Virus record (IMG/VR): IMGVR_UViG_3300042991_000483
Location: 7,299 to 71,298 of that record
Strand: one strand, 5' to 3'
DNA: 64,000 bases
DNA from: a virus
Numbering within the stretch: position 1 is the stretch's first letter; every line of letters begins with the position of its first letter. This document shows positions 52,045 to 63,683 of this stretch, in pieces. A program made the position numbers and the translations under genes. A model generated the notes under the pieces. That model searched no databases, had not been told where the DNA came from, and was given only the letters and a program-made list of their open reading frames with translations.

Positions 52045-52075
52045 GTCGCTATCTCCGAGACGGTATGGTATACTC

Positions 52076-52260: not shown

Positions 52261-52330
52261 ACGATAAGGATTTCGTCGAGAATATACGCTATATAAATAG
52301 GTGGTACTGGACCACCGAGGAGAACAGAAG

Positions 52331-52405
52331 ATGAAGACCATGTCCTACGCAGCTATTTATTGGTTTAATGCGAATGCCAATGCCCTTTGGAGGCTGCTGG
52401 TCTAA
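52331..52405 (+). CDS. Leader peptide 1, MKTMSYAAIYWFNANANALWRLLV
   Basis: SD GAGGAG 8 nt upstream; 24 codons; overlaps the antiterminator arm. Confidence 0.8.
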   Translation: MKTMSYAAIYWFNANANALWRLLV

Positions 52406-52464
52406 GTCCATCTCTACCCCAGACCAACACAACCTCCGAGGGCGACTTCGGAGGTTTTCGTTTT
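52389..52464 (+). promoter_or_regulatory. Attenuator 1 (antiterminator/terminator)
   Basis: ggagg..tggtct pairs with agacca..cctcc and is mutually exclusive with terminator aacctccgag/ttcggaggtt plus T-run. Confidence 0.8.
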
Positions 52465-52471
52465 GGAGGAG

Positions 52472-52696
52472 ATGATGCCAGTGTCAGAGAAGGTGTTTAG
52501 GCTACAGACGAAGTTGATGCAGTGCGAACATATCCTACAAGCACTGGCGGAAATGCACCATGACTTAGTAGAGGAAGCGGAGACTTTGATAGCAGTCTTG
52601 GAAAGGGAAGGGTTAGGAAGTTTCAGTACCAGCGTCGCCTACAGATCGGAGATGCTGAAGCGAATGCTAGAAGAGCATAAGGAGAAGATGAGTTAA
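52472..52696 (+). CDS. Small helical hypothetical protein, first gene after attenuator 1
   Basis: SD GGAGGAG. Confidence 0.6.
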   Translation: MMPVSEKVFRLQTKLMQCEHILQALAEMHHDLVEEAETLIAVLEREGLGSFSTSVAYRSEMLKRMLEEHKEKMS

Positions 52697-52703
52697 GACA
52701 TGC

Positions 52704-52786
52704 TGTGAGGACCCCGTTGGGTGGGGCTGAGGCTGTTAACCTCACGCTGAAAAGCAGATAGGGTTCGATTCCCTACCTCACAGCCA
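52704..52786 (+). tRNA. tRNA with GTT anticodon (Asn) and long variable arm
   Basis: tgtgagg/cctcaca-G-CCA; tgagg-ctGTTaa-cctca; gct-gaaa-agc arm; TTCGATT loop. Confidence 0.75.
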
Positions 52787-52789
52787 AAC

Positions 52790-52864
52790 GGAGCGTTAGT
52801 TCAATGGTAGAACGCGGGGTCTGTTAAACCCACGACGAAGGTCCGATTCCTTCACGCTTCGCCA
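52790..52864 (+). tRNA. tRNA-Asn(GTT)
   Basis: ggagcgt/acgcttc-G-CCA; gggt-ctGTTaa-accc. Confidence 0.85.
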
Positions 52865-52978
52865 ATTTTTTAATAAGGTCACCGGGGCAACCAAGTAGAT
52901 GACGCCACATCGTGTGGCTAAGGATAAGGTCAGTGTTCGATATGTGGGAGGTGACGTTACAGAACAAACAGTACTAAT

Positions 52979-53074
52979 GCCATCATTTCCCCTCAACCGG
53001 CTGTAACCCGGTTGCCCGTTACCAATAAGAGGGGTCGGCTGGGCGTCCGGTTCGAATCCGCGATGGTGGCACCA
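52979..53074 (+). tRNA. tRNA-Tyr(GTA), D-arm-less rewired type
   Basis: gccatca/tggtggc-A-CCA; aaccgg-ctGTAac-ccggtt; cccctc pairs with gagggg in the variable arm. Confidence 0.8.
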
Positions 53075-53076
53075 TT

Positions 53077-53152
53077 CTCTGTCTGGTGTAAGTGGTCTGC
53101 ACTGTAGCTCGAAACACTACGGGACTCCGTTCGATTCGGAGGGCAGAGGCCA
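53077..53152 (+). tRNA. tRNA with CGA anticodon (Ser-like), 9-nt loop and short variable region
   Basis: ctctgtc/ggcagag-G-CCA; gtag-ctCGAaaca-ctac. Confidence 0.65.
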
Positions 53153-53161
53153 AAGTTCTGT

Positions 53162-53235
53162 AGCCCTTTAGTTCAACATTAGAACAATGCTCTGATAAAG
53201 CATAGACTTCCGTGAGACTCGGAGAAGGGCTACCA
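53162..53235 (+). tRNA. tRNA-Ile(GAT)
   Basis: agccctt/aagggct-A-CCA; atgct-ctGATaa-agcat. Confidence 0.88.
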
Positions 53236-53244
53236 AACAATCAG

Positions 53245-53319
53245 GCTTCCTTCGTCTAGCTAGGAGGACTCCCGGCCGATTACCGGGGAACGCTGGGGCA
53301 GAGCCAGCAGGAAGTTCCA
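53245..53319 (+). tRNA. Atypical tRNA with GAT anticodon (Ile?)
   Basis: gcttcct/aggaagt-T-CCA; cccgg-ccGATta-ccggg; T-loop GGCAGAG. Confidence 0.65.
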
Positions 53320-53327
53320 AAATATGT

Positions 53328-53401
53328 GGGGTCGTCGTTCAACGGGAGGACACTACAATGGCATTGTAGGGATCGGGGTTCGATTCCCCGTGACTCCACC
53401 A
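53328..53401 (+). tRNA. tRNA-Ala(GGC)
   Basis: G3:U70; ctaca-atGGCat-tgtag; ACCA. Confidence 0.92.
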
Positions 53402-53408
53402 ACATAGT

Positions 53409-53484
53409 GGGGGCGCATGTACCAAGGGGGCGATGATGCCTCGCAAGCATCGTGCGGAGAGTTCGATTCTCTTCGTCTCCACCA
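53409..53484 (+). tRNA. tRNA-Ala(CGC)
   Basis: G3:U70; gatgc-ctCGCaa-gcatc; ACCA. Confidence 0.9.
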
Positions 53485-53494
53485 AAAGTTTTAT

Positions 53495-53568
53495 AGGTCC
53501 GTCGGTTAACAGAAGGCTCCTGGTCTCCAAAACCAGCAATCTCCGTGCAAATCGGAGCGGACCTGCCA
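53495..53568 (+). tRNA. tRNA-Trp(CCA)
   Basis: aggtccg/cggacct-G-CCA; ctggt-ctCCAaa-accag. Confidence 0.9.
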
Positions 53569-53574
53569 ATTTAT

Positions 53575-53650
53575 CCCAGGGTCGTCTAACACTTAGGACA
53601 CGCGCCTCCAAAGCGCGAAGGTGTGGGTGAAAATCCTACCTCTGGGGCCA
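53575..53650 (+). tRNA. tRNA-Trp(CCA), second copy
   Basis: cccaggg/ctctggg-G-CCA; cgcgc-ctCCAaa-gcgcg. Confidence 0.88.
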
Positions 53651-53865
53651 ACTCTTAGGAGGTTGCCTATGTCATCGCCAAACGCAAGTCCGAGTACTAC
53701 CACATACTCCTGACTAGGTTCAGTTCCGATATAGACAGGGACACGGCACTGGCGGAATGCAGGAGTAGGTGCTACACAAAACCCAATGTAGTAGAGGGTC
53801 TTGGCAACAAACTTCTGACACTTTCTGGTAAAGTCTTTCGCTCACCTGAGTCTTGCTTCGAGGCG

Positions 53866-54126
53866 ATGGACGGTATGGGAGTTGGCCTGGACCTGATCCG
53901 GTGCGAGGACTACATCACTCTCGGTCGCTACCTCTACGGGAAGCGGATGCTCAACGTCACCGTGACTCAGTGGATCGAGGACATGAACATCTACATCTTC
54001 TGGCCAGAACTCTTCCGCGAGTACCCGCGTTGGTTCTTAGAAACCTACCTCTCCCGGATTTGGACGGCGGAGATTGGGATGTGGTATGGCGCTTTCACTT
54101 CTGATCTCGCTATAAATAAGGAGTAG
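53866..54126 (+). CDS. Hypothetical protein (frame open back to 53659)
   Basis: Track ORF; the upstream extension has no in-frame ATG. Confidence 0.45.
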   Translation: MDGMGVGLDLIRCEDYITLGRYLYGKRMLNVTVTQWIEDMNIYIFWPELFREYPRWFLETYLSRIWTAEIGMWYGAFTSDLAINKE

Positions 54127-54253
54127 AGACGGAGCAGCATCTGCTGCGGGAAAGTTGGAGGAAGAGTTGGTAGCCCTTCCTTGGCATCTGCCAAAACGAA
54201 GAACGCCCGATGTCCTGCGCCAACAGCCGAAGGGACACGCCGTCTCTACCTCC
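54120..54253 (+). ncRNA. Unclassified rod-shaped RNA with possible pseudoknot
   Basis: gtagagacgg/ccgtctctac closing stem, nested ttggagg/cct..ccaa and ttggtag/ctgccaa; CGCTATAAATA just upstream. Confidence 0.55.
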
Positions 54254-54256
54254 ATA

Positions 54257-54388
54257 GGAACCTGGGCTGGTGTACGAGACGATCAGAAATGGCATTCCCT
54301 GCTAGTAGCCCCTCCTGTTACGAGGGAGCCCGGTATAGGGGGTAGGGAGGAGTGGGTGGCGAATCGAGACTCCCACGCCCGCGTTCCA
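54257..54388 (+). ncRNA. Enlarged tRNA-like RNA (GTT loop, CCA end)
   Basis: gaac..gggc/gccc..gttc ends; ccctc-ctGTTac-gaggg; tccctgc/gtaggga; gtggg/cccac arm. Confidence 0.5.
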
Positions 54389-54610
54389 AATTCTTTCGCT
54401 ATCTCTGAGGGAGTGTGGTAGAATGTATCTGACCGGATCCATGCCGCAGGGCAGTGGGTTAATGAGAGAGGGTTCTCCGGGCGCTTCACCTAACGTAAAC
54501 GAACCCTCGTCACGGAGATTGTGAAAGGGACGCAATCCCGTTCCCACAAGGTACTTAATCGGCAACGCCGGTAGCCTTCCCTCACCGGCACTTCTTCTAC
54601 GGAGGCAAGT

Positions 54611-55027
54611 ATGAAGTTCACCAAGCTCAATTACGTCAAGAGGGGAGAGGTTACGAAGGCTATCCGTCAATCTTGTCCCACCGCCTCTTTTCCAAAAGAC
54701 CAAAACAAAGCCACCGTGACGGTTTGGTTGCAGGATGAGGACCTTCCAGCATTAGATGCTGTCGCTAACTCCTTCGGTCTCCCCAAGCCTTTTCATCCCC
54801 ACTGTAGTGAGACATATAGTAGGGTTAGGGATGTCTGGCTCTTCAAAGATGATGCTAATCTTGCTGCATACGAAGAAGAGTGGGCACAAGTTCGGGCCAA
54901 GGAGAACGCTAGGCTGAGGAAAGAGCGGGACGAGGAGAGGGCATGGTACAAGTCTCAGGGTCGGGAAATACCATCATACCTGATGTGGGCGATTAGCCCA
55001 GCGGAGGCATATTGTTTAGGCGCATAG
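54611..55027 (+). CDS. Hypothetical protein
   Basis: 138 aa with SD GGAGG. Confidence 0.7.
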   Translation: MKFTKLNYVKRGEVTKAIRQSCPTASFPKDQNKATVTVWLQDEDLPALDAVANSFGLPKPFHPHCSETYSRVRDVWLFKDDANLAAYEEEWAQVRAKENARLRKERDEERAWYKSQGREIPSYLMWAISPAEAYCLGA

Positions 55028-55455
55028 AATTGATCACGGTCACCGACTACCGAGAGATCGCCAAGGAGATGAAAGCCAACGGCTGGACCCCCTCTGACTT
55101 CATCGCCGAACTGGCTCAATCCGGCGAGAGGGAGTGGTTAAAATCAGGACTCTGCTTCAACGGATGCGACATGGCCGTCTTTGACTCCTGGGTAGACAGA
55201 CTCGAAGAAGGCATCACGAATAAGCATAGGGGCGTCCCGAATAAGAACGGGAGGTTCTACTTCACAGAAGAGGGCTGGAACAGGGTTGGACGGTATGCTG
55301 TTGCAGCTTGTATTAAGACCGGGACACAGTACCGTGTGCTGAAGGTCAAAGAGAAGGAGATGGATGTTATATTTCGCGGTGCCTACGAGGTCATGCTGAG
55401 ACCGAAGAAGAAGCGTAGGGATCGCAAAGAAGATCAGCGACTGAGTCAAGATTAG
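55012..55455 (+). CDS. Hypothetical protein
   Basis: 147 aa; RFYFTEEGW; SD GGAGG. Confidence 0.7.
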   Translation: MFRRIELITVTDYREIAKEMKANGWTPSDFIAELAQSGEREWLKSGLCFNGCDMAVFDSWVDRLEEGITNKHRGVPNKNGRFYFTEEGWNRVGRYAVAACIKTGTQYRVLKVKEKEMDVIFRGAYEVMLRPKKKRRDRKEDQRLSQD

Positions 55456-55526
55456 GGCCTATGGCGTAATTAGGAACGCATCGCCCCTGCAAGGCGAAGT
55501 CCCCGGGGCGGAGCCGGGTAGGTCCA
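55455..55526 (+). tRNA. tRNA-Ala(TGC), CCA not encoded
   Basis: gggccta/taggtcc-A with G3:U70; tcgcc-ccTGCaa-ggcga; T-loop GGCGGAG. Confidence 0.8.
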
Positions 55527-55530
55527 CAGG

Positions 55531-55590
55531 GGTTCGTTTCCTGTTGGGTTCACCAAAAGAATATACATAGGAACCCAACAGGAGATGAAC
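55531..55590 (+). promoter_or_regulatory. RBS-sequestering hairpin with promoter motif in its loop
   Basis: gttcgtttcctgttgggttc/gaacccaacaggagatgaac; loop contains AGAATATA; 3' arm contains SD AGGAG. Confidence 0.75.
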
Positions 55591-55591
55591 T

Positions 55592-56584
55592 ATGTCAGAC
55601 GTTTATAAATGCGAACAATGCGGAAAAACAGTCGAATCCTCTAAACGTTTTTGCGGAAGACCATGTTCTAACCGTTGGATAGCCACTCACAGAAAGACCC
55701 ATCCGAGAGAAGCTAAATTAGAATGCGCGTGTAAACACTGTGGAAGCATGTTCAAGAAAAAGCATAATCTCGGGTTTCGCCTCTGTACGAGGTGCAGAAA
55801 TAAACAAGACTACATCAGGGATAGAAATAAAACAGCGCAGCCAGGAAGAGAAAGGCTTTGTAAGTACTGTGAAAAACCCAACTTAGGAGAATACGGGGCT
55901 GGAATATTCTGCTCTCAACTCTGTTCGAAACGATACGCCAGTGCATACACGCAGACGCCGATTCTAGTCGTTTGTATGGACTGCGAAAAAGAGTTCTCTA
56001 CGTTTGAAAGAAACAAGTCCCAAACAAAGCGATGTCCGGCCTGTAGAAAAAGGGCTAGACGTAAACGACAAGGGCTACATGGGATATCAAAAAAGGAAAA
56101 GTGTTCGAAATGTCAGAAGAACATAGGTCCTACAAAGCACGGAATGTGCAAAGTATGCCTTTATAAGGACCCTGAATTTAGACTGAAAGTGAAAGCACTA
56201 TCTGCGGGCTGGCACTTTCGACCAAGGAAAATGAGGTCGTTTCCAGAACTTTTCTTTGAGCGGGTCATAAAGAATAACAGAAGACGGTTTAAGGGAGAGG
56301 GGTATTTACCGGATTACCCAGTGAAAAAGAAATCTCTGGGTCTCATCAATAATGGCTCCTATTTCCTTGATTTCTATTTCCCAAATTGGAAGTTAGACCT
56401 GGAAATAGATGGGAGCCAGCATTGGCAATATGAGGAGCGGATACAGAGCGATATTACGAGAGACATTGCTCTGAAAGCTAATGGTATAAAGGTATATAGG
56501 ATCCCGTGGCCGGGGGTAGAGAAGAAAGAGGTTTTGTCTATGGAGATCGAGAAATTTTTATCTTACGTGGATGAGCTTTCATGA
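55592..56584 (+). CDS. Zn-finger-repeat DUF559/Vsr-like homing endonuclease
   Basis: Multiple CxxC; SFPE, YFLDF, LEIDGSQH, RDIAL..GIKVYRI; AT-rich. Confidence 0.88.
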   Translation: MSDVYKCEQCGKTVESSKRFCGRPCSNRWIATHRKTHPREAKLECACKHCGSMFKKKHNLGFRLCTRCRNKQDYIRDRNKTAQPGRERLCKYCEKPNLGEYGAGIFCSQLCSKRYASAYTQTPILVVCMDCEKEFSTFERNKSQTKRCPACRKRARRKRQGLHGISKKEKCSKCQKNIGPTKHGMCKVCLYKDPEFRLKVKALSAGWHFRPRKMRSFPELFFERVIKNNRRRFKGEGYLPDYPVKKKSLGLINNGSYFLDFYFPNWKLDLEIDGSQHWQYEERIQSDITRDIALKANGIKVYRIPWPGVEKKEVLSMEIEKFLSYVDELS

Positions 56585-56677
56585 TTCTCTCCAGGTCCAC
56601 CATTGACAGCGCGAGGGCTTCGGCTCTCGCTTTCTGCTGCCAGACGAGAATATAGTGATATAACGAAGGAGAACGCC

Positions 56678-56935
56678 ATGCCCATGTACGAAGTCTTTCT
56701 CAGCGGAACCCTCTATCTCAACGCCCGCGTGGAAGTGGAAGCCAATAGCCCAGAAGAAGCTGAATCTGTTGCGATGCACAGAGCTGCATCAGATGACGAG
56801 TCTATCGAATGGATAAACTTGGACAGTAGCCTGGAAATGCCTCCTGGGGTATTTCCTTCGGATGCTGTCTACGTGGACGATGTCTCAGAGATGGACGAGG
56901 ACGATGGTATCGGCTCTGATTTCATCGAGACCTAA
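56678..56935 (+). CDS. Small acidic hypothetical protein
   Basis: SD AGGAG; VEVEANSPEEA motif. Confidence 0.7.
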   Translation: MPMYEVFLSGTLYLNARVEVEANSPEEAESVAMHRAASDDESIEWINLDSSLEMPPGVFPSDAVYVDDVSEMDEDDGIGSDFIET

Positions 56936-56936
56936 G

Positions 56937-57242
56937 ATGTCGCAATACGGATACAAACCCGAACCCAGTGAAGCCGGGGTGGTTTCCCGTATCGTCATAG
57001 AACCGAACTATTCCAGTAACGAAGAGTTTCCTGGAAAGCTATCGGTGATGATGTTGGACGCAGAGGACAGGCTAGTGGACGTCTGGAGTGCCAACGACAT
57101 CAATGAAGCCGCTGCGCTATTGATCCGATACGGTGGCGAAGCCGGATACGAAATCAACAAAGTCGAGTCTCCCCAGATCCCGAACGAAGGCGACGCCCCC
57201 GAGCCACCTTGGCCTGTAGGCGGAGACGTCGGCGGCGTCTAA
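56937..57242 (+). CDS. Hypothetical protein
   Basis: ATG immediately after the upstream stop. Confidence 0.6.
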   Translation: MSQYGYKPEPSEAGVVSRIVIEPNYSSNEEFPGKLSVMMLDAEDRLVDVWSANDINEAAALLIRYGGEAGYEINKVESPQIPNEGDAPEPPWPVGGDVGGV

Positions 57243-57264
57243 TCCCCCACTTCCTAACTCAATA

Positions 57265-57292
57265 AAAGAGCCTGCTATTTGCAGGCTTTTTT
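57265..57292 (+). terminator. Intrinsic terminator
   Basis: agcctgc-tattt-gcaggct followed by T-run. Confidence 0.75.
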
Positions 57293-57403
57293 GTTGCCCT
57301 GTTTAGATACTCACCGCCGGATGTAGAGTTAATGAACAGAAACTCCTTATTCTATAAAGAGAATATATGAGTAGTGACTCGCTAATATAAGAGGAGGTTC
57401 GCC

Positions 57404-57589
57404 ATGACCGCAGTCCTTGTGATACTCACCATCCTCGTTCTCGTTCTCGTTGCCGCAGACGCTACCAGACTCTCTCTTGTTCGTAGGAGAATGATAAAGG
57501 TAGGAGCCGTATTTGAACCTGGGCTTGGTTTCTGCATGGGCGACGGGCTTCGGAAAGATGACGCTGATCCGGAGAATATACAGGCTTAG
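57404..57589 (+). CDS. Small membrane-anchored protein
   Basis: Hydrophobic N-terminus; SD GGAGG. Confidence 0.6.
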   Translation: MTAVLVILTILVLVLVAADATRLSLVRRRMIKVGAVFEPGLGFCMGDGLRKDDADPENIQA

Positions 57590-57654
57590 CCGGGGAAGTT
57601 TTCAAAATTCTCCGCTATTATATTCAAGGTGTGATATACTCAACCCCTTGGAGG

Positions 57655-57759
57655 ATGAAGACGATGTTTAAGAGATCTAGGCAACCCAAACCAGTACAGA
57701 CAGGGACTACGGGACATATGCGCCCGTGCGTCGGCGTCAAGGGAGGTCAGACCTCGTAA
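57655..57759 (+). CDS. Leader peptide 2, MKTMFKRSRQPKPVQTGTTGHMRPCVGVKGGQTS
   Basis: TGATATACT -10 at 57632-57640; SD GGAGG is best spaced to the second Met (57664); overlaps the antiterminator arm. Confidence 0.8.
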   Translation: MKTMFKRSRQPKPVQTGTTGHMRPCVGVKGGQTS

Positions 57760-57822
57760 AATCATCGGCATTATTAGGTGAAACGAGGCGACCTCCAAGA
57801 AAATTGGGGGTCGTTTTAGTTT
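57742..57822 (+). promoter_or_regulatory. Attenuator 2 (antiterminator/terminator)
   Basis: ggaggtc..cctcgt pairs with acgagg.gacctcc and is exclusive with terminator gcgacctccaa-gaaa-ttgggggtcgt plus T-run. Confidence 0.8.
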
Positions 57823-57918
57823 TGGGGTCAGGGTAAGGTTTCGGATGTAGCTTATGCTGTCACCGGAGAAACCAGCACAGTGGCGAGGGCGGGGCCGACT
57901 GGGCGAAGTGGAGTTGAG

Positions 57919-58128
57919 ATGAGAGAAGAATGCTTGCATGGTAGGACGTACAGGGTGGTTGTAGGAGCGGAGGCTAGAAGGACTACGGTCACGGAATTTG
58001 GAGACGAGATTCAGTATTGCGTGGAACGGATCATTTTCAGGTGTTCAGATTGCAACAGAGAAGTATCAGAACTAGGTAGACGCAGGGCTTACTTCCCCAC
58101 GACTACTGAATTAGAAACGACGAAGTAA
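57919..58128 (+). CDS. Small Cys/His hypothetical protein, first gene after attenuator 2
   Basis: CLH..CSDC; SD GGAG. Confidence 0.55.
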   Translation: MREECLHGRTYRVVVGAEARRTTVTEFGDEIQYCVERIIFRCSDCNREVSELGRRRAYFPTTTELETTK

Positions 58129-58131
58129 GTC

Positions 58132-58143
58132 GCTCTTTGAAAA
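58132..58143 (+). promoter_or_regulatory. boxA-like antitermination element
   Basis: GCTCTTTGAAAA before tRNA array 2. Confidence 0.6.
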
Positions 58144-58246
58144 TCAGTCGGAAGAACGGACCGCAGAACCCCTCACGTTCTGCGTGGCATGATTCTGCGG
58201 TCTCGAACTTTAGATTTGGAACGCGCTCGTGCGCGTTCCCACCTCC

Positions 58247-58318
58247 GCGCCTTTAATGTAACGGTAGCATGCGGTCAGGCTTGATCCCCCGCAGAGCGGT
58301 TCGATTCCGCAAGGCGCT
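58247..58318 (+). ncRNA. tRNA-like RNA (Gly-type body) with aberrant 14-nt anticodon loop
   Basis: gcgcctt/aaggcgc-T, D-arm and gcgg-ttcgatt-ccgc. Confidence 0.65.
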
Positions 58319-58331
58319 TCTTATTACTTAT

Positions 58332-58429
58332 GGGGTCTGTTAGTGTAAAAGGATAGCACACTCCGTCCTACGCGGGTACCGGCGAGACGGGTCAAAGTAG
58401 ACGCGGTTCGATTCCGCACGGGCCCCCCA
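58332..58429 (+). ncRNA. tRNA-like RNA (His-type G-1:C73 end) with extended anticodon arm
   Basis: ggggtctgt/acgggcccc-CCA, D-arm, ccgtc/gacgg extension and gcgg-ttcgatt-ccgc. Confidence 0.7.
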
Positions 58430-58443
58430 ATTCTTATCTATGA

Positions 58444-58521
58444 CTGAGAGTGGACTAATGGCTAAGTCTCCTGCTTTGGAAGCAGGACATCGTGAGAGTT
58501 CGAGTCTCTCCTCTCAGACCA
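58444..58521 (+). tRNA. tRNA-Pro(TGG)
   Basis: ctgagag/ctctcag-A-CCA; cctgc-ttTGGaa-gcagg. Confidence 0.93.
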
Positions 58522-58529
58522 AAACATGA

Positions 58530-58604
58530 TGGCGTTTGGTGGACCAGCGGACACATCGGGCCTTGAACCCGAAGAACAGGGGCCGGCACCCTGAACGCCT
58601 GCCA
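58530..58604 (+). tRNA. tRNA-Gln(TTG)
   Basis: tcggg-ccTTGaa-cccga; G-CCA; T-loop GCCGGCA. Confidence 0.8.
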
Positions 58605-58615
58605 AAAACGATTAC

Positions 58616-58689
58616 TGGCGCTTCGTTCAATAGTAGGATTCTGCTCTCTGAAAGCAGAGACGATGGGGCGGTACCATCAGTGCCAGCCA
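58616..58689 (+). tRNA. tRNA-Gln(CTG)
   Basis: tggcgct/agtgcca-G-CCA; ctgct-ctCTGaa-agcag. Confidence 0.88.
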
Positions 58690-58711
58690 ATATCTCCGAG
58701 TATCTTAACGT

Positions 58712-58799
58712 CAGGGTGTAGTCCCGTAAATAGCAGCGGTCCGGCCTCGGACGCCGGTGGGGCAACCCCTTGGTGGTGCAAGTCCACTCGCCCTGACCA
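58712..58799 (+). tRNA. tRNA-Pro(CGG) with long variable arm
   Basis: cagggtg/cgccctg-A-CCA; ccggc-ctCGGac-gccgg; ggg-gcaa-ccc arm. Confidence 0.8.
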
Positions 58800-58816
58800 A
58801 TTCTTCTTTGTACAAT

Positions 58817-58860
58817 CCCCTCCATCGAGGAAACGTTGGTTCAACTCCAGCACCGGGCAC
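58817..58860 (+). pseudogene. 3'-half tRNA remnant
   Basis: T-arm gttgg-ttcaact-ccagc and accgggc-A with no matching 5' strand. Confidence 0.5.
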
Positions 58861-58917
58861 TTTCACTTTCCATCTGGAAACTATAATGTCCAAATGGACA
58901 CTCAAATGACCAAGTAA

Positions 58918-58993
58918 GCGGGAATGGTGTAAAGGAAGCATCGAACGTTGCCAACGTTCAGGTCCGGGTTCGCCTTGCCCGGTTTCCGCTCCA
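58918..58993 (+). tRNA. tRNA-Gly(GCC)
   Basis: gcgggaa/tttccgc-T-CCA; gaacg-ttGCCaa-cgttc; 9-nt T-loop. Confidence 0.88.
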
Positions 58994-59002
58994 AAAACAA
59001 AT

Positions 59003-59093
59003 AGTCGGCATTCCCTATGCTGGTCTGCAAAACCAGTGGGCCCAACCAAGTAGGGCGGATGCCTGTGAGGTTCGACTCCTCTGCTGACTTCCA
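59003..59093 (+). tRNA. tRNA-Cys(GCA), D-arm-less rewired type
   Basis: agtcggca/tgctgact-T-CCA (U73); ctggt-ctGCAaa-accag; cccta pairs with taggg in the variable arm. Confidence 0.8.
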
Positions 59094-59150
59094 ATTTCTT
59101 TCTATATCTCCAGAGACTGTGGTAGAATATACCTTTGTCATGGAGATAGC

Positions 59151-61052
59151 ATGAGAGAGAGTGCAGTCGGTACTTGCCAGATCTGCGAAAGACTCGTCAA
59201 GTCTAACCGCGGCACTATCGCCCACCACGGATACACCAGACCTGGGGCAGGGTGGCAAACAGAATCGTGCATGGGATCCATGTACAAACCCTACGAAGTC
59301 AGTAGGGACAGGATCCCGGACGCCATAGCCTCCGTGGAAGCCTACATCAAAACAGCAAAGGCTAGGTTGAAGCAGTTGAAGTCCGGGGGCGTGGTGCTCA
59401 GCAAGAGAGTTCAGAAAGAGTTTAATCGTCAGACTTGGAAATACGAATACGAAGATGTTGAAGTCAGACCTGGAGACGAAGACTACGACCAACTCCTTCA
59501 CTCTGCTGTCGCTAAGACTGAATCCAATATCTCTGGCTCTCAAACCACGCTCAACAGATTCAAGCAGAGGTACGAGGAATGGGAGCCAAAGGACTTGCGT
59601 AGGGTCGCGGAGCCCACTACAGCTGCTGAGAGGATACAGAAGCGGAAGGAAGAGGGACCACAAGAAGATTTCAAATTTGAAGTAGGGGATTGGGTCTACC
59701 GAGTCCTCGGTGGCAGGGTGCAGAAGGGCGTCAAGCTTGAGTTTTGGGGCGAAAGCAAAGCCGTCCCGAGCCGTATCAAATACCCCATGGGACAGATCCT
59801 TCGGAGAAACTTTAGACCTCGTGCGGCTGAGTATAAGCGTCACGAGTACGAGATCATCTTTTTCGAAGACTACCTGGGTTGGGTCAACGACGCCGACAAG
59901 GACTGGAAACGAGACAGCGAGAGGGTGACGACTTCGCAGGAGATGCTAGTGGCTTCTCCAGAACAAGTCCCTGAACTCGGTACAGGAGTCGAGTTCGCCA
60001 GTAAGCGAAATGCAGAGTTAGCACTACTGCCGAAGGAGGCAGTGAGAAAAAGTTCAGATGACGCCCCCTTCAAATTCGAAGTCGGAGATACCGTGTATAG
60101 ACTCGGGAACGACGGGATGCCTATAACCGACATAGGCACGGACAAATACCACGACGTCGGTGAACCACCTCTCCATATAACCTATCCCGTAGGTAAGATA
60201 AAGAAACGCATATACAAAGCGAAACTTGCCAAAGAAAATCTTCGAATCCGTTACATCGTGGAATGGGTCACGGACTGGTTCAAACCCGATACCCACGAAG
60301 GTCCTACCATGACTTATCGCTATGAGAGAGAAACCAGAAGCACGGAAGAGATGGAAACCAGCCTCGTCCCTGCAGCAAGTGCTGTGCCGCCAATACCAAA
60401 AGAAACAGCAACGAGAAAGAATGCTCTCTATTCGGAGACTACAGTGATAACCGAAGACAAAGCAGAACAGATTAAGATCGCCGGTAGAACGATGACCACT
60501 CGCGCTGGTGGCGGCGCCTCTAAACCAATTCGCTGGCTCATCAACAACTCCTGCATCCTCGGTCATGTCCTCTACCACGGCAGGGGCAAAGATATCGCCG
60601 GTGAGAGTATGCTAGCCTCTGACGTGGGTGTCTCTAGTGTGTCCGCTTACGATCCTAATATCAGCGGTATAGATGATGCCAGCACCCTCAATGGGGATTA
60701 TGATACTGTTGTCACCGTCTTCGTTCTCAATGTCCTCCCCCCAGATATCCGCGCCGAAGTCTTAGACGACCTCCGTACCGCAACAGGAGATGGCGTGTGC
60801 TTCGCCGCTGTCAGAGGCAAGGGAGAAAGAGGGTATCAAGACGCGACCAGAGAAGGCGCGAACTGGATCCCCGAGGAAGACGGCTACCGATACCAGGGAG
60901 CAAGGAACACTTTCCAGAAATGGTATGACCCCAGTGAACTCGTGTCAGAACTCAAGTCCGTATTCTCTCATGTCGAGATCGTGAACACTGATAGGGAAGC
61001 CCCTATCGCGATGGCCTGGAATCAGGGCAACCACTCCTGTCCGAATAAATAA
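59151..61052 (+). CDS. Multidomain protein with C-terminal SAM-methyltransferase-like domain
   Basis: GTCQIC..HHGY N-domain, duplicated FKFEVGDxVYR module, and VLYHGRGKD..YDP..YDTVVTVFVLNVL. Confidence 0.7.
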   Translation: MRESAVGTCQICERLVKSNRGTIAHHGYTRPGAGWQTESCMGSMYKPYEVSRDRIPDAIASVEAYIKTAKARLKQLKSGGVVLSKRVQKEFNRQTWKYEYEDVEVRPGDEDYDQLLHSAVAKTESNISGSQTTLNRFKQRYEEWEPKDLRRVAEPTTAAERIQKRKEEGPQEDFKFEVGDWVYRVLGGRVQKGVKLEFWGESKAVPSRIKYPMGQILRRNFRPRAAEYKRHEYEIIFFEDYLGWVNDADKDWKRDSERVTTSQEMLVASPEQVPELGTGVEFASKRNAELALLPKEAVRKSSDDAPFKFEVGDTVYRLGNDGMPITDIGTDKYHDVGEPPLHITYPVGKIKKRIYKAKLAKENLRIRYIVEWVTDWFKPDTHEGPTMTYRYERETRSTEEMETSLVPAASAVPPIPKETATRKNALYSETTVITEDKAEQIKIAGRTMTTRAGGGASKPIRWLINNSCILGHVLYHGRGKDIAGESMLASDVGVSSVSAYDPNISGIDDASTLNGDYDTVVTVFVLNVLPPDIRAEVLDDLRTATGDGVCFAAVRGKGERGYQDATREGANWIPEEDGYRYQGARNTFQKWYDPSELVSELKSVFSHVEIVNTDREAPIAMAWNQGNHSCPNK

Positions 61053-61062
61053 GGAGAAGACG

Positions 61063-61332
61063 ATGCGCAGATACCTTATCTTCGCCGGAAGCGAATTTTA
61101 TCCTAGTGGTGGGTGGGCAGACCTCGTAGATATGGCTGACGAACTAGGCAAAGTCTACTACATCATAGATGGTTGGCGAGAGTTTGACGACTGGGATGCA
61201 GAGGCTTTGCGAGATGATAGCCCAAGCTCCTACAAATACGATTGGGTACAGGTTGTGGACACACAGGCATCGACCCCCTTCAAGTTCGAGGGGACGGTAG
61301 AAGAAGTTCTTTACGGACTCAGACGCCCGTAA
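61063..61332 (+). CDS. Hypothetical phage protein
   Basis: RYLIFAG.FYPSGGWAD..DWVQVVD; SD AGGAG. Confidence 0.75.
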   Translation: MRRYLIFAGSEFYPSGGWADLVDMADELGKVYYIIDGWREFDDWDAEALRDDSPSSYKYDWVQVVDTQASTPFKFEGTVEEVLYGLRRP

Positions 61333-61396
61333 GATCCTCCCTTATCTTCCGGAGTTATGGTATACTGTCTCCGTGGAGATAGTAGCTTCCGCGATG

Positions 61397-61407
61397 GTTC
61401 TTTGAAA
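61397..61407 (+). promoter_or_regulatory. boxA-like element after TGGTATACT promoter
   Basis: GTTCTTTGAAA; promoter at 61343-61366. Confidence 0.6.
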
Positions 61408-61410
61408 CTG

Positions 61411-61694
61411 CTTTCGGTGGTAGGCTTAGAAGTAGCCAGTACGGCTCACACCCGTACCTGCCTTAATGAGCAGAAGCATAGCCTATAGTGAGTGGTGCGT
61501 GGGTTGGGGACTTATACGCGCACCGGCGGGGGAAAGTTGCCCCGAAATATCCTACCTGCCCGACCTGAATCCCAAGCGTGAGAAGGGAATCCTCCCTATG
61601 AAGTACCTTCTCATAACGTGATGGTTAAGGCTGAGGCTGACAACTTGCTTTAGGTGGAGGTCTAGCTTCTCTTGGTGTAACAACACGCCGAAAG
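61411..61694 (+). ncRNA. Structured RNA resembling the 23S rRNA L11-binding domain (H43/H44)
   Basis: GGCTTAGAAGTAGCCA and GGTGTAACAACAC framed by a ctttcggtg/cgccgaaag stem. Confidence 0.7.
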
Positions 61695-61702
61695 AACATA
61701 TG

Positions 61703-61808
61703 ACGGGTTTGGTGTAACGTTAGCACTCTCTGGGGAGGACGGGTTCTCGCCTTCGGGCTACGACCAAATTCTTCGGGGAAGAGCGGTTAGACTCCGCAAC
61801 TCGTACCA
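61703..61808 (+). ncRNA. tRNA-like RNA with long branched anticodon arm
   Basis: acgggtt/aactcgt-A-CCA, D-arm and gcgg-ttagact-ccgc; no 7-nt anticodon loop. Confidence 0.7.
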
Positions 61809-61836
61809 AAATAATCTAATATGATGGAGGAGTCCG

Positions 61837-62313
61837 ATGAAGAAAGTGGACAAGCACATCGTCACCGCCGCTCACAAAGCCTACCACAATCGCAGTAAGA
61901 CCTGGAGACGTTCTCGTCTCAAGTACCGTTCGGAATACTTTGACTACTCCTGTAGGCATCACGGCTCTTGTCCTTACTGCCACCTCAGGCGCCTGCATAA
62001 CACCATCCGCAGAGAACTCAATGCCAGAGAAGAGATGGCAGAGTTCATCAAAGACCCAAATGGCTGGGACGCTCGGACTGAGGCAGAGTTGTGGGGCATG
62101 GACGAAGACGATCCTACAACGCCTCAGGAATATCTCGACCCCGCTTTTCTTGCCGCCTGGGAGACGTACCAAGATCGAATGGGCGGGGAGATGACGGATG
62201 AACAAGACCAGTGGGAGATTGATAACCACTTCGACGGAGACCGAGAGGCTTGGGAAAAAGCCGAAGTCGAAAGCTATTTAGAAGCTACAGAATCTATAGG
62301 ACGAGATGACTGA
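61837..62313 (+). CDS. Hypothetical protein (basic N-terminus with C-H-C-C motif, acidic C-terminus)
   Basis: FDYSCRHHGSCPYC; SD GGAGGAG. Confidence 0.7.
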   Translation: MKKVDKHIVTAAHKAYHNRSKTWRRSRLKYRSEYFDYSCRHHGSCPYCHLRRLHNTIRRELNAREEMAEFIKDPNGWDARTEAELWGMDEDDPTTPQEYLDPAFLAAWETYQDRMGGEMTDEQDQWEIDNHFDGDREAWEKAEVESYLEATESIGRDD

Positions 62314-62351
62314 TGGGTGCATGCACCTAGCATCAGCCTCGTCCCACTCAT

Positions 62352-62426
62352 GGCGTAGTTAGTCCAATGGTAGGACGCAGGACTGTGAATCCTGTTATAA
62401 GAGTTCGATTCTCTTACTTCGCCCCA
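62352..62426 (+). tRNA. tRNA-His(GTG)
   Basis: G-1 and C73; cagga-ctGTGaa-tcctg; CCA. Confidence 0.92.
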
Positions 62427-62458
62427 ATCCAAATAAAAGCGAGGATCTCGCTGAAGAT

Positions 62459-62533
62459 GTGTCGTTGGCAGAGCGACCATGCGCTGGGATGTGACCCCAG
62501 ATCAGGCCGGTTTAACTCCGGCACGACACCCCA
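62459..62533 (+). tRNA. tRNA-His(GTG), second copy without encoded G-1
   Basis: gtgtcgt/acgacac-C-CCA; ctggg-atGTGac-cccag. Confidence 0.82.
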
Positions 62534-62620
62534 ATATGAGACAGCTTGCCCCAGGCTAAGGCAGAAGATGAAGCGGAGCGAGGATGCCGAGTCTCCGATT
62601 AAACTGCCACTCTCTTTACT

Positions 62621-62694
62621 GCGGATATGGTGTAAAATCAGCATCTTGCATTCCCAATGCAAGGGACTCGGAGAGTTACCGAGTATCCGCTCCA
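62621..62694 (+). tRNA. tRNA-Gly(CCC)
   Basis: gcggata/tatccgc-T-CCA; ttgca-ttCCCaa-tgcaa. Confidence 0.88.
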
Positions 62695-62696
62695 AT

Positions 62697-62776
62697 GCTC
62701 CTGTATCGGACAGGTTTCCTAAACCTGACCACCGTAACGGATGAAAATGCGGGTTCAAGTCCCGCCGGGAGCCCCA
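62697..62776 (+). tRNA. tRNA-Arg(CCT), D-arm-less type
   Basis: gctcctg/cgggagc-C-CCA; caggt-ttCCTaa-acctg; 7-nt D region and 21-nt variable region. Confidence 0.75.
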
Positions 62777-63286
62777 CTATTCTATTCCTGCGTGTCTTTC
62801 TCTGTGGCAGTTAGCGCAGAGAAGAACGCATTTGTCCAACTCTGCCCTCATGCAGTCATTGAAGGACACACTCTTTTTCTTTGAGATAATGAAGTCTTTC
62901 TTGCTTGGGTCAGTGTGATGAAAATCCAAGGCACCAGTGAATTTGTCATACCCACACTTTTCACATTTTCCACCTTTGTAGTCTACAAACTGTTGCTTCT
63001 GCCTTTGTCCTCGGTCCCTGCACTCATCACTTGTACACTGCTTACAATACGACGAGGTATCTTTTCGATCCTCTCTCCTTACCATATAGAAGGCAGATAG
63101 TGGTCTTGTCTCTTTACATCTAGGACATCGTTTCACTCCAAGATTCTTTGGATATTGACTAGTGTTATGCTTTCCGAAGGGACTACAGGCTAGGCAGAAA
63201 CGCCGTTTACTAAAGTTTCGTTTCTTACCCTCTATCTCTACGAATATCGCGAACGCATCACCACACTTCTCACACGTTTTAGGCAT
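62777..63286 (-). CDS. HNH homing endonuclease
   Basis: KCEKCGY..ALDFHHTDP..ELDKCVLLCANCHRERH. Confidence 0.92.
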   Translation of the reverse strand: MPKTCEKCGDAFAIFVEIEGKKRNFSKRRFCLACSPFGKHNTSQYPKNLGVKRCPRCKETRPLSAFYMVRREDRKDTSSYCKQCTSDECRDRGQRQKQQFVDYKGGKCEKCGYDKFTGALDFHHTDPSKKDFIISKKKSVSFNDCMRAELDKCVLLCANCHRERHAGIE

Positions 63287-63342
63287 TTAGACCTCCTTGT
63301 CTAATTGTATATTCTCGTGGAGGTGTGTAGTTGAACTATTAT

Positions 63343-63424
63343 GCACCCGTAGCCGAGCGAGGCCCCGAACCTCGTATCCGTAATGTAGCTGCGAATGGAG
63401 GTTAAAGTCCTCTCGGGTGCTCCA
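63343..63424 (+). tRNA. tRNA-Arg(CCG), D-arm-less type
   Basis: gcacccg/cgggtgc-T-CCA; cgagg-ccCCGaa-cctcg. Confidence 0.65.
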
Positions 63425-63426
63425 AC

Positions 63427-63501
63427 GCTGTGGTCTTCTAAGACGCAGGATGCTTCTCTCACTAAGAAGCGATGGGGGTGCGAATCCTCCCCGCAGCACC
63501 A
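63427..63501 (+). tRNA. tRNA-Val(CAC)
   Basis: gctgtgg/ccgcagc-A-CCA; cttct-ctCACta-agaag. Confidence 0.85.
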
Positions 63502-63546
63502 TCACGCTATCTTTATCCGGGCTTAACTCAGCGGAATAGCTTTCAC

Positions 63547-63621
63547 CTGCCCGTAATTCAGTGGTAGAATCCAATTCTTACAAAATTGGGGTCGGTGGTT
63601 CGAGTCCACCCGGGCAGACCA
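63547..63621 (+). tRNA. tRNA-Val(TAC)
   Basis: ctgcccg/cgggcag-A-CCA; caatt-ctTACaa-aattg. Confidence 0.92.
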
Positions 63622-63683
63622 TAAAATACAACGTTCAATTCGTTCTCTCTGCACCAAAAAGAATATACGGATAGAGGTGTCAA

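What the first reader, a model, noticed from the sequence alone, without database searches (positions are those of the whole stretch)
52279..63621. Candidate new system: two tRNA operons gated by leader-peptide attenuators whose codons match their own tRNA cargo
Seen: the same cassette occurs twice (promoter, SD, MKTM leader, GGAGG-containing antiterminator, terminator, one small ORF, tRNA array). After MKTM, leader 1 is built mainly from S/Y/A/I/W/N (plus F, L and a terminal R, V) and has no G/P/Q/H/C; its array encodes Asn, Tyr, Ser, Ile, Ala and Trp. Leader 2 is built mainly from R/Q/P/V/T/G/H/C/K and has no A/Y/W/N/I/L; downstream tRNAs are Pro, Gln, Gly, Cys and, further on, His, Gly, Arg and Val. 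Established: ribosome stalling in leader peptides drives attenuation (trp, his, thr, pheST), and hosts deplete tRNAs with anticodon nucleases (PrrC, PARIS, some retron effectors). Inference: the phage polls many tRNA species at once and transcribes a replacement bank only when a matching codon stalls. I know of no description of attenuators controlling phage tRNA arrays, but could not search. Asp and Glu appear in neither leader, which predicts a third cassette outside the window.
Basis: partly seen in the sequence, partly recalled or inferred. Interest (0 to 1): 0.96.

Follow-up and report, generated by a model that had tools for sequence, protein, structure and literature searches.

The report
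Codon-matched attenuators before phage tRNA arrays
Two blocks of tRNA genes in an uncultured phage each sit behind a tiny test gene, spelled largely in the amino acids those tRNAs carry and wired to a switchable transcription stop, so the phage probably makes these tRNAs mainly when ribosomes read those codons slowly.

Summary
Each cassette has a promoter, an SD, a short ORF starting MKTM, and an intrinsic terminator. A competing hairpin uses the last leader codons plus the stop codon. A small ORF and a tRNA array follow.

- **Switch:** both antiterminators are far more stable than shuffles (z -3.9 and -3.4). Three gene-end terminators used as controls show nothing.
- **Leader 1:** 13 of its 14 sensor residues are amino acids carried by tRNAs of its own transcription unit. 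It is the only one of 922 short ORFs in the contig to reach this.
- **Leader 2:** the match is weaker, 16 of 24 residues. K, T, S, F and M have no tRNA gene in the contig, and array 3 has its own promoters.
- **Pairing:** the two leaders split the 13 tRNA amino acids as the two units do, the best of 1716 partitions.

No relatives of this phage could be fetched and no RNA data exist. As an independent check I found the same design in cultured Caulobacter phages (phiCbK group). There it is conserved as an ORF across five phages, with compensatory changes in the terminator and antiterminator.

Ten literature searches found no published account. This scan has noted the same design before on other DNA. 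Function remains untested.

The parts
52045..52074 (+). Upstream sigma-70-like promoter (CGCTATCTCCGAG ... TGGTATACT), just after the terminator of the preceding gene. It could also feed cassette 1.
   Evidence: (repeat family D19).
52286..52297 (+). Phage-specific promoter-like motif ACGCTATATAAA directly before leader 1.
   Evidence: 5 matches in the window against 0.28 expected.
52317..52322 (+). Shine-Dalgarno GAGGAG, 8 nt before the leader 1 ATG.
   Evidence: read directly.
52331..52405 (+). Leader ORF 1 (24 codons), MKTMSYAAIYWFNANANALWRLLV*. Sensor codons are 52343-52384.
   Evidence: 13 of 14 sensor residues fall in the tRNA set of unit 1.
52382..52443 (+). Antiterminator 1. GCCCUU-GGAGG-..-UGGUCU (last leader codons plus stop) pairs with AGACCA..CCUCCGAGGGC, which is the 5' arm and loop of the terminator.
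   Evidence: z -3.9 against 500 shuffles and -3.7 against 300.
52431..52464 (+). Intrinsic terminator 1: 11-bp stem with a 4-nt loop, then TTTTCGTTTT.
   Evidence: -18.4 kcal/mol.
52469..52696 (+). Small ORF of 75 aa with no family match. First gene behind attenuator 1.
52704..53650 (+). tRNA array 1: Asn(GTT) twice (one Sec-like, 83 nt), an odd tRNA-like RNA, Tyr(GTA)-like, Phe(GAA)/Ser(CGA) ambiguous, Ile(GAT), Ile(GAT)-like, Ala(GGC), Ala(CGC), Trp(CCA) twice.
55455..55527 (+). tRNA-Ala(TGC). It lies in the same terminator-bounded unit as array 1 but behind an internal promoter-like site at 54416.
   Evidence: (44.9 bits).
57632..57640 (+). Extended -10 promoter element TGATATACT of cassette 2, with the CGCTAT upstream element.
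57655..57759 (+). Leader ORF 2 (34 codons; the start may be M4 at 57664). Sensor codons are 57667-57738.
   Evidence: 16 of 24 sensor residues fall in the tRNA set of unit 2.
57742..57796 (+). Antiterminator 2. GGAGGUC..CCUCGU (last leader codons plus stop) pairs with ACGAGG.GACCUCC.
   Evidence: z -3.4 and -3.5.
57787..57823 (+). Intrinsic terminator 2: stem 57787-57798 with 57804-57815, then TTTTAGTTTT.
   Evidence: -18.5 kcal/mol.
57910..58128 (+). Small ORF of 72 aa with no family match and no likeness to the 75-aa ORF.
58246..59094 (+). tRNA array 2: two odd tRNA-like RNAs, then Pro(TGG), Gln(TTG), Gln(CTG), Pro(CGG), Gly(GCC), Cys(GCA)-like.
62353..63621 (+). tRNA array 3: His(GTG) twice, Gly(CCC), Arg(CCT)-like, Arg, Val(CAC), Val(TAC). 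No strong terminator separates it from array 2, but it has promoter-like sites of its own upstream.

Best explanation
Each cassette is a ribosome-mediated (leader-peptide) transcription attenuator placed in front of tRNA genes.

Proposed sequence of events:
1. Transcription starts at the cassette promoter, and a ribosome translates the short leader.
2. If the leader codons are decoded quickly, the ribosome reaches the stop codon. There it covers the last leader codons, which form the 5' strand of the antiterminator. The terminator hairpin then forms and RNA polymerase stops before the small ORF and the tRNA array.
3. If the ribosome stalls earlier, at one of the sensor codons, the antiterminator forms first. 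It sequesters the 5' arm of the terminator, and polymerase reads into the tRNA genes.

The sensor codons are those read by the tRNAs encoded downstream (Asn, Ala, Tyr, Trp, Ile and Phe in cassette 1; Pro, Gln, Gly, Cys, and also His, Arg and Val in cassette 2). The circuit is therefore a multivalent feedback: shortage of any of these charged tRNAs raises synthesis of the phage's own copies, and abundance shuts it off.

Shown here: the sequence anatomy, the alternative folds, the statistics of the match, and a conserved analogue in cultured phages. Inferred: translation of the leaders, regulated read-through, and the cause of shortage (host tRNA loss during infection or host tRNA-cleaving defence).
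For: 1. Terminators. Both are strong, with T-tracts.

2. Alternative fold.
- A transcript cut before the terminator's 3' arm folds into an antiterminator that pairs 10 of 11 (c1) and 11 of 13 (c2) bases of the 5' arm with the end of the leader ORF.
- Energies are z -3.9 and -3.4 against 500 dinucleotide shuffles. 0 of 500 shuffles reach both the energy and the arm pairing.
- Three other strong + strand terminators give z +0.6, -1.3 and +0.3, with 0, 0 and 6 arm bases paired.
- Masking a ribosome footprint at the stop codon leaves only the terminator.

3. No independent promoter. No promoter-like site lies between either terminator and its first tRNA.

4. Leader 1 match.
- 13 of 14 sensor residues fall in {N,Y,F,I,A,W}; binomial P = 1.3e-7.
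- With only Rfam-supported isotypes {N,I,A,W} the count is 10 of 14, P = 9e-6.
- Among 922 short ORFs of the contig it is the only one with 13 or more of 14; the next best has 10.
- The structural tail LWRLLV has 1 of 6.

5. Pairing of leaders with units.
- Leader 1 has 13 residues in set 1 and 0 in set 2. Leader 2 has 1 and 16. Fisher P = 1.2e-7.
- The real split is the single best of 1716 partitions, and the best of 126 with conservative sets.

6. Independent lineage, the Caulobacter phage phiCbK group.
- Annotated terminators stand directly before tRNA blocks.
- The short ORF before the Phe/Val/Ile/Gln block is kept open in 5 of 5 phages examined, from four genera.
- 9 of 18, 12 of 17, 14 of 18, 12 of 17 and 12 of 17 of its residues are in the isotypes of its own block.
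- The terminator is 100% paired, with 3 pairs changed on both sides. The antiterminator is 96.4% paired, with 3 such pairs.
- The correct leader-to-block pairing scores 38 against 27 for the next best of 6 permutations, and 2 of 6930 partitions reach it.
Against: - There are no RNA or ribosome data. No RNA run was listed for this DNA, so translation and read-through are untested.
- No relative of this phage could be fetched, so conservation of these two leaders is unknown.
- Leader 2 is a modest match. 24 of 922 short ORFs reach 16 of 24, and 61 of 922 reach the match to the immediate cargo {P,Q,G,C}. Complete coverage of its set is seen in 68 of 922.
- 8 of the 24 sensor residues of leader 2 (K, K, T, T, T, S, F, M) have no tRNA gene in the contig.
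- At codon level, AGA, GGA, CGC and GTC have no exact cognate anticodon here.
- Array 3 and tRNA-Ala(TGC) lie behind internal promoter-like sites.
- The Tyr, Cys, second Ile and Arg(CCT) genes are non-canonical, and I read their anticodons by hand.
- The (Asn-Ala)x3 run in leader 1 is a hexanucleotide repeat, so its residues are not independent. Collapsing it gives 9 of 10, by my hand estimate P about 2.5e-5.
- With no translation at all, the design would predict read-through unless an upstream pairing blocks the antiterminator. hints at such a pairing for c1, but I did not test it.
- The Caulobacter set has only 5 sequences, and 15 of 500 shuffles reach the antiterminator covariation score.
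Confidence: 0.7

Rival explanations
1. The cassettes are ribosome-dependent attenuators that report general translation capacity (any slowdown of ribosomes). They are not codon-specific sensors, and the amino-acid match adds nothing functionally.
For: - The same fold logic serves antibiotic-sensing leaders. The search listings show vmlR and whiB7 work; the mechanism details are recalled.
- Leader 2 contains many residues without a matching tRNA gene, and its match is reached by 24 of 922 short ORFs.
Against: - The 13 of 14 match of leader 1 is unique among 922 ORFs.
- The two leaders are almost disjoint, and they split the tRNA amino acids as the units do, the best of 1716 partitions.
- In Caulobacter phages the three leaders also sort with their own blocks.
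Confidence: 0.12
2. The short ORFs encode small functional peptides, or are simply the ends of short transcripts. The terminators are constitutive, partly leaky insulators that set a fixed low level of tRNA transcription, with no switching.
For: - Leaky terminators before tRNA genes would explain the anatomy without regulation.
- No expression data exist, and cassette 1 has two promoters upstream.
Against: - Constitutive terminators need no antiterminator, yet both cassettes have one. Each stands at z about -3.5 to -3.9, with its 5' strand over the stop codon. Three control terminators have none.
- The leader peptides share only MKTM, have no family, and are of low complexity.
- The Caulobacter analogue keeps the antiterminator pairing through compensatory changes.
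Confidence: 0.1
3. Chance: unrelated short ORFs happen to lie before terminators, and the composition match is a post hoc reading.
For:
- The statistics for leader 2 are modest.
- Several tRNA identities rest on hand reading.
Against: - Leader 1 is the 1 of 922 short ORFs that reaches the match, even with conservative tRNA sets.
- The shared 12-nt start is found only at these two sites.
- Antiterminator z-scores are significant and the controls are not.
- The same design recurs in an unrelated, cultured phage group and is conserved there.
Confidence: 0.03

Closest known systems
Multivalent leader-peptide attenuators of enterobacterial amino-acid operons (thr leader: Thr + Ile; ilvGMEDA leader: Ile/Leu/Val; also trpL, hisL, pheL). 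Recalled textbook knowledge; pheL appears in the search listing (PMC3082878).
   Same: A short translated leader holds runs of regulatory codons. An intrinsic terminator and a mutually exclusive antiterminator follow, and the position of the ribosome decides which forms. Several amino acids are sensed by one leader.
   Different: The regulated genes here are tRNA genes, not biosynthetic enzymes, so the output restores tRNA rather than amino acid. Up to 6-7 or more isotypes are polled by one leader. The system is in a phage. No sequence homology was tested or expected.
pheST and other translation-apparatus genes under leader-peptide attenuation, and T-box leaders of aminoacyl-tRNA synthetase genes (recalled).
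   Same: They couple the expression of decoding machinery to the state of a specific tRNA.
   Different: T-boxes bind uncharged tRNA directly and need no ribosome. No T-box or other cis-regulatory family was found at E <= 1 in 51000-64000. pheST senses one amino acid and controls a synthetase, not tRNA genes.
Stress-induced long tRNA array (trn operon) of Anabaena PCC 7120.
   Same: An extra bank of tRNA genes stays silent in normal growth and is switched on when translation is impaired. Homing endonuclease genes lie beside such arrays (PMC8421152, passages seen).
   Different: Control is by a protein repressor, TrcR (PMC10272220, abstract seen). The 2021 paper has 0 occurrences of 'attenuat', 'leader peptide' or 'terminator'. 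The array is cellular, not phage.
Short-ORF and terminator cassettes before tRNA blocks of Caulobacter phages of the phiCbK group. Found here; the records annotate only 'terminator' and one 'hypothetical protein'.
   Same: Promoter, short ORF spelled in the isotypes of the following block, antiterminator inside the ORF, terminator, then the tRNA block.
   Different: There is no sequence likeness to the window's cassettes. The leaders start MSKT or MMTY, the host is GC-rich, and the mRNAs appear to lack an SD. The genome paper (PMC3556154) has 0 occurrences of 'attenuat' or 'leader'.
Phage tRNA genes as a counter to host tRNA loss or tRNA-cleaving defences (PARIS, retron effectors, OLD, PrrC). 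Search listings; details recalled.
   Same: This supplies the likely biological reason for a phage to carry, and to regulate, spare tRNAs.
   Different: Those studies concern which tRNAs are carried and cleaved. None that I found describes how phage tRNA arrays are switched.

Membership tests
Leader-peptide (ribosome-mediated) transcription attenuator | A short ORF with a usable start and ribosome-binding site in the 5' leader of the regulated genes | tested here: met
   c1: GAGGAG lies 8 nt before the ATG of a 24-codon ORF. c2: GGAGG abuts ATG1 and lies 9 nt before ATG2 of a 34-codon ORF. Translation itself is not shown.
Leader-peptide (ribosome-mediated) transcription attenuator | An intrinsic terminator between the leader ORF and the regulated genes, with no promoter in between | tested here: met
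   Stems of -18.4 and -18.5 kcal/mol with T-tracts (for c1). No sigma-70-like, extended -10 or phage-motif site lies in 52457-52704 or 57826-58246. Other promoter types are not covered.
Leader-peptide (ribosome-mediated) transcription attenuator | A mutually exclusive antiterminator whose formation depends on where the ribosome sits on the leader | tested here: met
   Folds. z -3.9 and -3.4, with 0 of 500 shuffles matching. Three control terminators are negative. The stop codon lies inside the 5' strand of the antiterminator in both cassettes. In silico only.
Leader-peptide (ribosome-mediated) transcription attenuator | Regulatory codons in the leader that correspond to what the operon supplies | tested here: met
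   c1: 13 of 14, and 1 of 922 ORFs reach it. c2 is met only in part: 16 of 24, and 24 of 922 reach it. The split is the best of 1716 partitions.
Leader-peptide (ribosome-mediated) transcription attenuator | An upstream pairing (segment 1:2) that blocks the antiterminator when the leader is not translated, with a pause site | tested here: inconclusive
   In the full-length fold of c1, AGACCA and GCAGCU of the early leader pair with GGCUGC..UGGUCU. This was not tested against shuffles, and nothing comparable is clear in c2.
Leader-peptide (ribosome-mediated) transcription attenuator | Conservation of the leader frame and of both alternative helices in relatives | not testable with these tools
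   No relative of this phage was found in INPHARED, IMG/VR, JGI metagenomes or GTDB genomes. The feature is met in the analogous Caulobacter phage cassettes.
Leader-peptide (ribosome-mediated) transcription attenuator | Read-through rises when the cognate charged tRNA is limiting | not testable with these tools
   This needs Term-seq, Ribo-seq or reporter assays. No RNA run holds this DNA.
T-box riboswitch | A specifier loop and a conserved T-box sequence recognisable by the Rfam model | tested here: not met
   cmscan of 51000-64000 at E <= 1 lists only tRNA-clan and chance matches.

The most novel reading that the evidence does not exclude
Large phages of unrelated lineages use a hitherto undescribed class of multiplexed tRNA-pool sensors. 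The lineages seen here are this cave-metagenome phage and the cultured phiCbK group of Caulobacter phages; this scan's earlier notes add several giant phages. Each tRNA block sits behind a leader peptide that polls, codon by codon, the very isoacceptors the block encodes. The phage therefore makes replacement tRNAs on demand, for instance when the host degrades or cleaves its tRNAs as a defence, and stops when supply is restored.
Probability: 0.6. Interest if true: 0.9.

Novelty: new variant of a known kind. Interest (0 to 1): 0.85.

Why it matters
How phages regulate their tRNA genes is essentially unknown, although these genes are now seen as counter-measures to host tRNA loss and tRNA-cleaving immunity. 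A leader peptide that reads out the tRNA pool and gates tRNA transcription would have three consequences.

- It would be the first case of classical attenuation controlling tRNA genes themselves.
- It would explain why phage tRNA genes are sorted into isotype blocks.
- It would give a simple sequence signature: the leader composition predicts the cargo of the block.

The same design is present and conserved in cultured Caulobacter phages, which have a model host and a public infection time-course RNA-seq. The idea is therefore directly testable.

Tried and rejected
Relatives of this phage
- DNA search of 52000-59200 against isolated phages gave only single tRNA-Ala hits.
- Protein-based searches of IMG/VR, JGI metagenomes and isolated phages used the 633-aa, 75-aa, PolA-half and 1064-aa proteins. 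They gave no close relative.
- An alignment-based scan gave 19 loci that share only the N-terminal domain of the 633-aa protein. 18 of the 19 have no tRNA. The other, L015, has 5 tRNAs on the other strand, far from the match. I did not use them further.
- The phiCbK homologue of that domain is not near tRNAs.
- A composite DNA pattern for the cassette found 0 stretches in IMG/VR. It found 1 in GTDB genomes (L022), inside ordinary coding sequence and without tRNAs, which I take as a chance match.

Expression
- No RNA holder was listed for this DNA.
- Laying the one DNA run, which may be the source sample, gave no cover over either leader and so no variants there.

Third cassette
- No further ATGAARACNATG site, no tRNA and no further leader-plus-terminator was found in the rest of the contig.

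Small ORFs behind the terminators
- They have no Pfam or PHROG family. I ran no further search on them.

Considered and set aside
- T-box or another known cis-regulatory RNA: no Rfam match.
- Promoter duplication as the sole reason for the shared MKTM start: the two cassettes use different promoter types.
- All four Ala codons in leader 1 as evidence for isoacceptor sampling. By my hand calculation, 5 draws cover all 4 codons with probability about 0.23, so this is not evidence.

Literature
- Ten full-text searches found no account of leader-peptide attenuation of tRNA genes.
S3 Table of PMC10688885 (phiCbK expression profile) may bear on gp335 and was not seen.

Full report
Setting

The window is 64 kb of a single 71,298-base contig. 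The contig is a phage fragment. It encodes a large terminase, ribonucleotide reductase, an RNA ligase-like protein, an SbcC-like protein and a family A DNA polymerase in two halves. No close relative exists among isolated phages, IMG/VR contigs or JGI metagenome contigs. The only near homologue is a protein 79% identical to the 633-aa ORF.

The observation

Cassette 1:
- The phage motif ACGCTATATAAA at 52286. This motif has 5 matches in the window against 0.28 expected.
- A 5' hairpin, then GAGGAG 8 nt before the ATG.
- A 24-codon ORF, MKTMSYAAIYWFNANANALWRLLV.
- A terminator at 52431-52464.
- A 75-aa ORF, and tRNAs from 52704.

Cassette 2:
- An extended -10 element, TGATATACT. It belongs to a promoter family also seen at 52066, 54416, 59120 and 61358.
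- GGAGG abutting the first ATG.
- A 34-codon ORF, MKTMFKRSRQPKPVQTGTTGHMRPCVGVKGGQTS.
- A terminator at 57787-57823.
- A 72-aa ORF, and tRNA-like genes from 58246.

The 12-base start ATGAARACNATG occurs only at these two sites in the contig. The two small ORFs are unrelated to each other and have no family.

The tRNA cargo

ARAGORN and Rfam together give the following.
- Array 1: Asn twice, Ile, Ala(GGC), Ala(CGC) and Trp twice. One gene is read either as Phe(GAA) or, with a 2-nt insert, as Ser(CGA).
- At 55455: Ala(TGC).
- Array 2: Pro(TGG), Gln(TTG), Gln(CTG), Pro(CGG) and Gly(GCC).
- Array 3: His twice, Gly(CCC), Arg, Val(CAC) and Val(TAC).

Several further genes are non-canonical. I read these by hand and from folds: Tyr(GTA)-like, a second Ile(GAT)-like, Cys(GCA)-like and Arg(CCT)-like. 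For that reason I ran each test twice, once with all isotypes and once with only Rfam-supported ones.

The switch

In both cassettes the full-length leader folds with the terminator. A transcript ending before the terminator's 3' arm folds differently. It forms a long hairpin in which the last leader codons and the stop codon pair with the terminator's 5' arm.
- These hairpins are much more stable than 500 dinucleotide shuffles of the upstream part: -30.0 against -19.2 +/- 2.8, and -32.9 against -22.6 +/- 3.1.
- None of the 500 shuffles reaches both the energy and the arm pairing.
- Three other strong + strand terminators, treated the same way, give z +0.6, -1.3 and +0.3.
- Masking a ribosome footprint at the stop codon removes the antiterminator and leaves the terminator.
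- No promoter-like site lies between either terminator and its first tRNA.

This is the anatomy of a ribosome-mediated attenuator. A ribosome that reaches the stop favours termination, and a ribosome held further upstream favours read-through.

The match between leader and cargo

My terminator scan of the whole contig found ten + strand sites. None lies between 52455 and 57287, and none lies after 57814. There are therefore two units.
- Unit 1: array 1 plus Ala(TGC).
- Unit 2: arrays 2 and 3.

Leader 1:
- 13 of the 14 residues ahead of the antiterminator are amino acids of unit 1 (P = 1.3e-7 from the contig's own amino-acid frequencies).
- With the conservative set the count is 10 of 14 (P = 9e-6).
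- Against an empirical null of 922 short ORFs in all six frames, leader 1 is the only one to reach 13 of 14. The next best has 10.
- The six residues that form the antiterminator strand contain only one such amino acid.

Leader 2:
- 16 of 24 residues match unit 2.
- 24 of 922 short ORFs do as well, and 61 of 922 match the immediate cargo {P,Q,G,C} as well.
- Lys, Thr, Ser, Phe and Met in the leader have no tRNA gene in the contig. The contig ends 380 bases after the last tRNA.

The two leaders are nearly disjoint. Counting only residues that belong to either tRNA set gives 13:0 for leader 1 and 1:16 for leader 2 (Fisher P = 1.2e-7). The real assignment of the 13 amino acids to the two units is the single best of all 1716 possible splits, and the best of 126 with the conservative sets.

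At codon level most sensor codons of leader 1 have a cognate or wobble-reading anticodon in unit 1. TCC does not. In leader 2 AGA, GGA, CGC and GTC lack an exact cognate.

An independent test in cultured phages

Relatives of this phage were unobtainable, so I looked at a phage reached through a distant protein match, Caulobacter phage phiCbK.
- Its record annotates rho-independent terminators directly before three tRNA blocks.
- Before each terminator lies a short ORF:
  - MTHLLTRYEREATGLDTTTA before Glu and Asp.
  - A 45-aa Ser/Leu/Pro/Lys-rich 'hypothetical protein' before Pro, Lys, Leu and Ser.
  - MSKTYRQFVRQIQVVRNIRAGRSRMADEGFRD before Phe, Val, Ile and Gln.
- The correct pairing of leaders and blocks scores 38 against 27 for the next best of six permutations. 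Only 2 of 6930 partitions reach it.
- The third cassette is conserved at DNA level in 46 records of Caulobacter and Brevundimonas phages.
- I fetched five phages from four genera. In all five the ORF is open and its sensor part tracks the block's isotypes: 9 of 18, 12 of 17, 14 of 18, 12 of 17 and 12 of 17.
- Its Arg and Asn codons correspond to Arg and Asn tRNAs present in the relatives' blocks. phiCbK itself has lost Arg, as its genome paper notes (PMC3556154, passage seen).
- The terminator is paired in 100% of cells, with three pairs changed on both sides.
- The antiterminator is a CCGGGCGGGCC-type segment inside the ORF, pairing with the terminator's 5' arm. It is paired in 96.4% of cells, with three pairs changed on both sides.
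- With five sequences this is moderate support. 15 of 500 shuffles reach the antiterminator covariation score.

This shows that the design is not peculiar to the window and is maintained by selection in at least one other lineage.

What is known

Ten full-text searches found no description of leader-peptide attenuation of tRNA genes in phages or cells.
- The nearest published case is the silent tRNA array of Anabaena, which is induced by translational stress. It is controlled by the repressor TrcR (PMC10272220, abstract). The 2021 paper on it does not contain the words attenuat-, leader peptide or terminator (PMC8421152).
- The phiCbK genome paper and the phiCbK infection RNA-seq paper do not mention attenuation.
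- This scan has noted the same design on other DNA several times. Those are unchecked AI notes and I do not count them as evidence. One of them gave me the lead to the Anabaena papers.

Verdict

- The attenuator reading is well supported in silico for cassette 1.
- It is supported in architecture, but only partly in codon match, for cassette 2.
- It is untested in function for both.

The mechanism is classical attenuation, so I class it as a new variant of a known kind. The regulated genes (tRNAs), the many isotypes polled by one leader and the phage setting are new. The link to host tRNA-cleaving defences and the predicted third cassette remain inference.

Noticed in passing
window 52702-52784; about 52979-53076; 53247-53327; 58712-58799; 59002-59094; 62697-62776: Many tRNA genes of the arrays are non-canonical. 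One is an 83-nt Asn(GUU) gene that fits the tRNA-Sec model (9-bp acceptor, 35.9 bits). Others are tRNA-like genes without a D hairpin but with an enlarged variable region (Tyr, Ile, Cys, Arg). They often sit beside a canonical gene of the same isotype.
   Followed up: partly
window 53247-53327, 58530-58604, 63343-63424: Several anticodon loops appear to have C instead of the near-universal U at position 33 (CCGAUUA, CCUUGAA, CCCCGAA). This could bear on evasion of anticodon nucleases, which is a recalled idea that I did not test.
   Followed up: no
window 58246-58320 and 58333-58429: Two tRNA-shaped RNAs head array 2, and neither has a readable 7-nt anticodon loop. One has a 14-nt loop and no CCA end. 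The other is 97 nt long with an 18-nt loop.
   Followed up: no
window 52077-52285, 54425-54600, 61370-61700: GC-rich, structured, apparently non-coding stretches follow three copies of the same promoter type (CGCTATCTC..GAG..TGGTAnAnT). None has an Rfam match at E <= 1.
   Followed up: partly
window 55592-56584 (+) and 62777-63286 (-): Two zinc-finger-rich endonuclease-like genes lie inside the tRNA region, as homing endonucleases do in other tRNA arrays. The first has a DUF559/Vsr-like domain and a match to an HNH PHROG.
   Followed up: partly
window 63819-64000: The contig ends in a transposase or integrase-like frame. Its contig depth is about 140-310, against about 13 for the phage part. 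The assembly therefore probably broke at a repeat, and the tRNA region may continue.
   Followed up: no
window 25337-25462: Seven tandem copies of a 14-nt unit (TCCCTGGGTCCTGA) lie in an intergenic stretch between divergent gene blocks.
   Followed up: no
L027 2582-2667, 4041-4270, 5842-6003 (phiCbK NC_019405 48081-48166, 49540-49769, 51341-51502): A cultured Caulobacter phage has three short-ORF and terminator cassettes before its tRNA blocks. The leaders sort with the blocks, and the third is conserved in at least four genera.
   Followed up: yes
window 62123-62295: The same sequencing run holds a second, lower-depth variant with 11 differences in 150 bases. A related strain is therefore present in the sample.
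   Followed up: no
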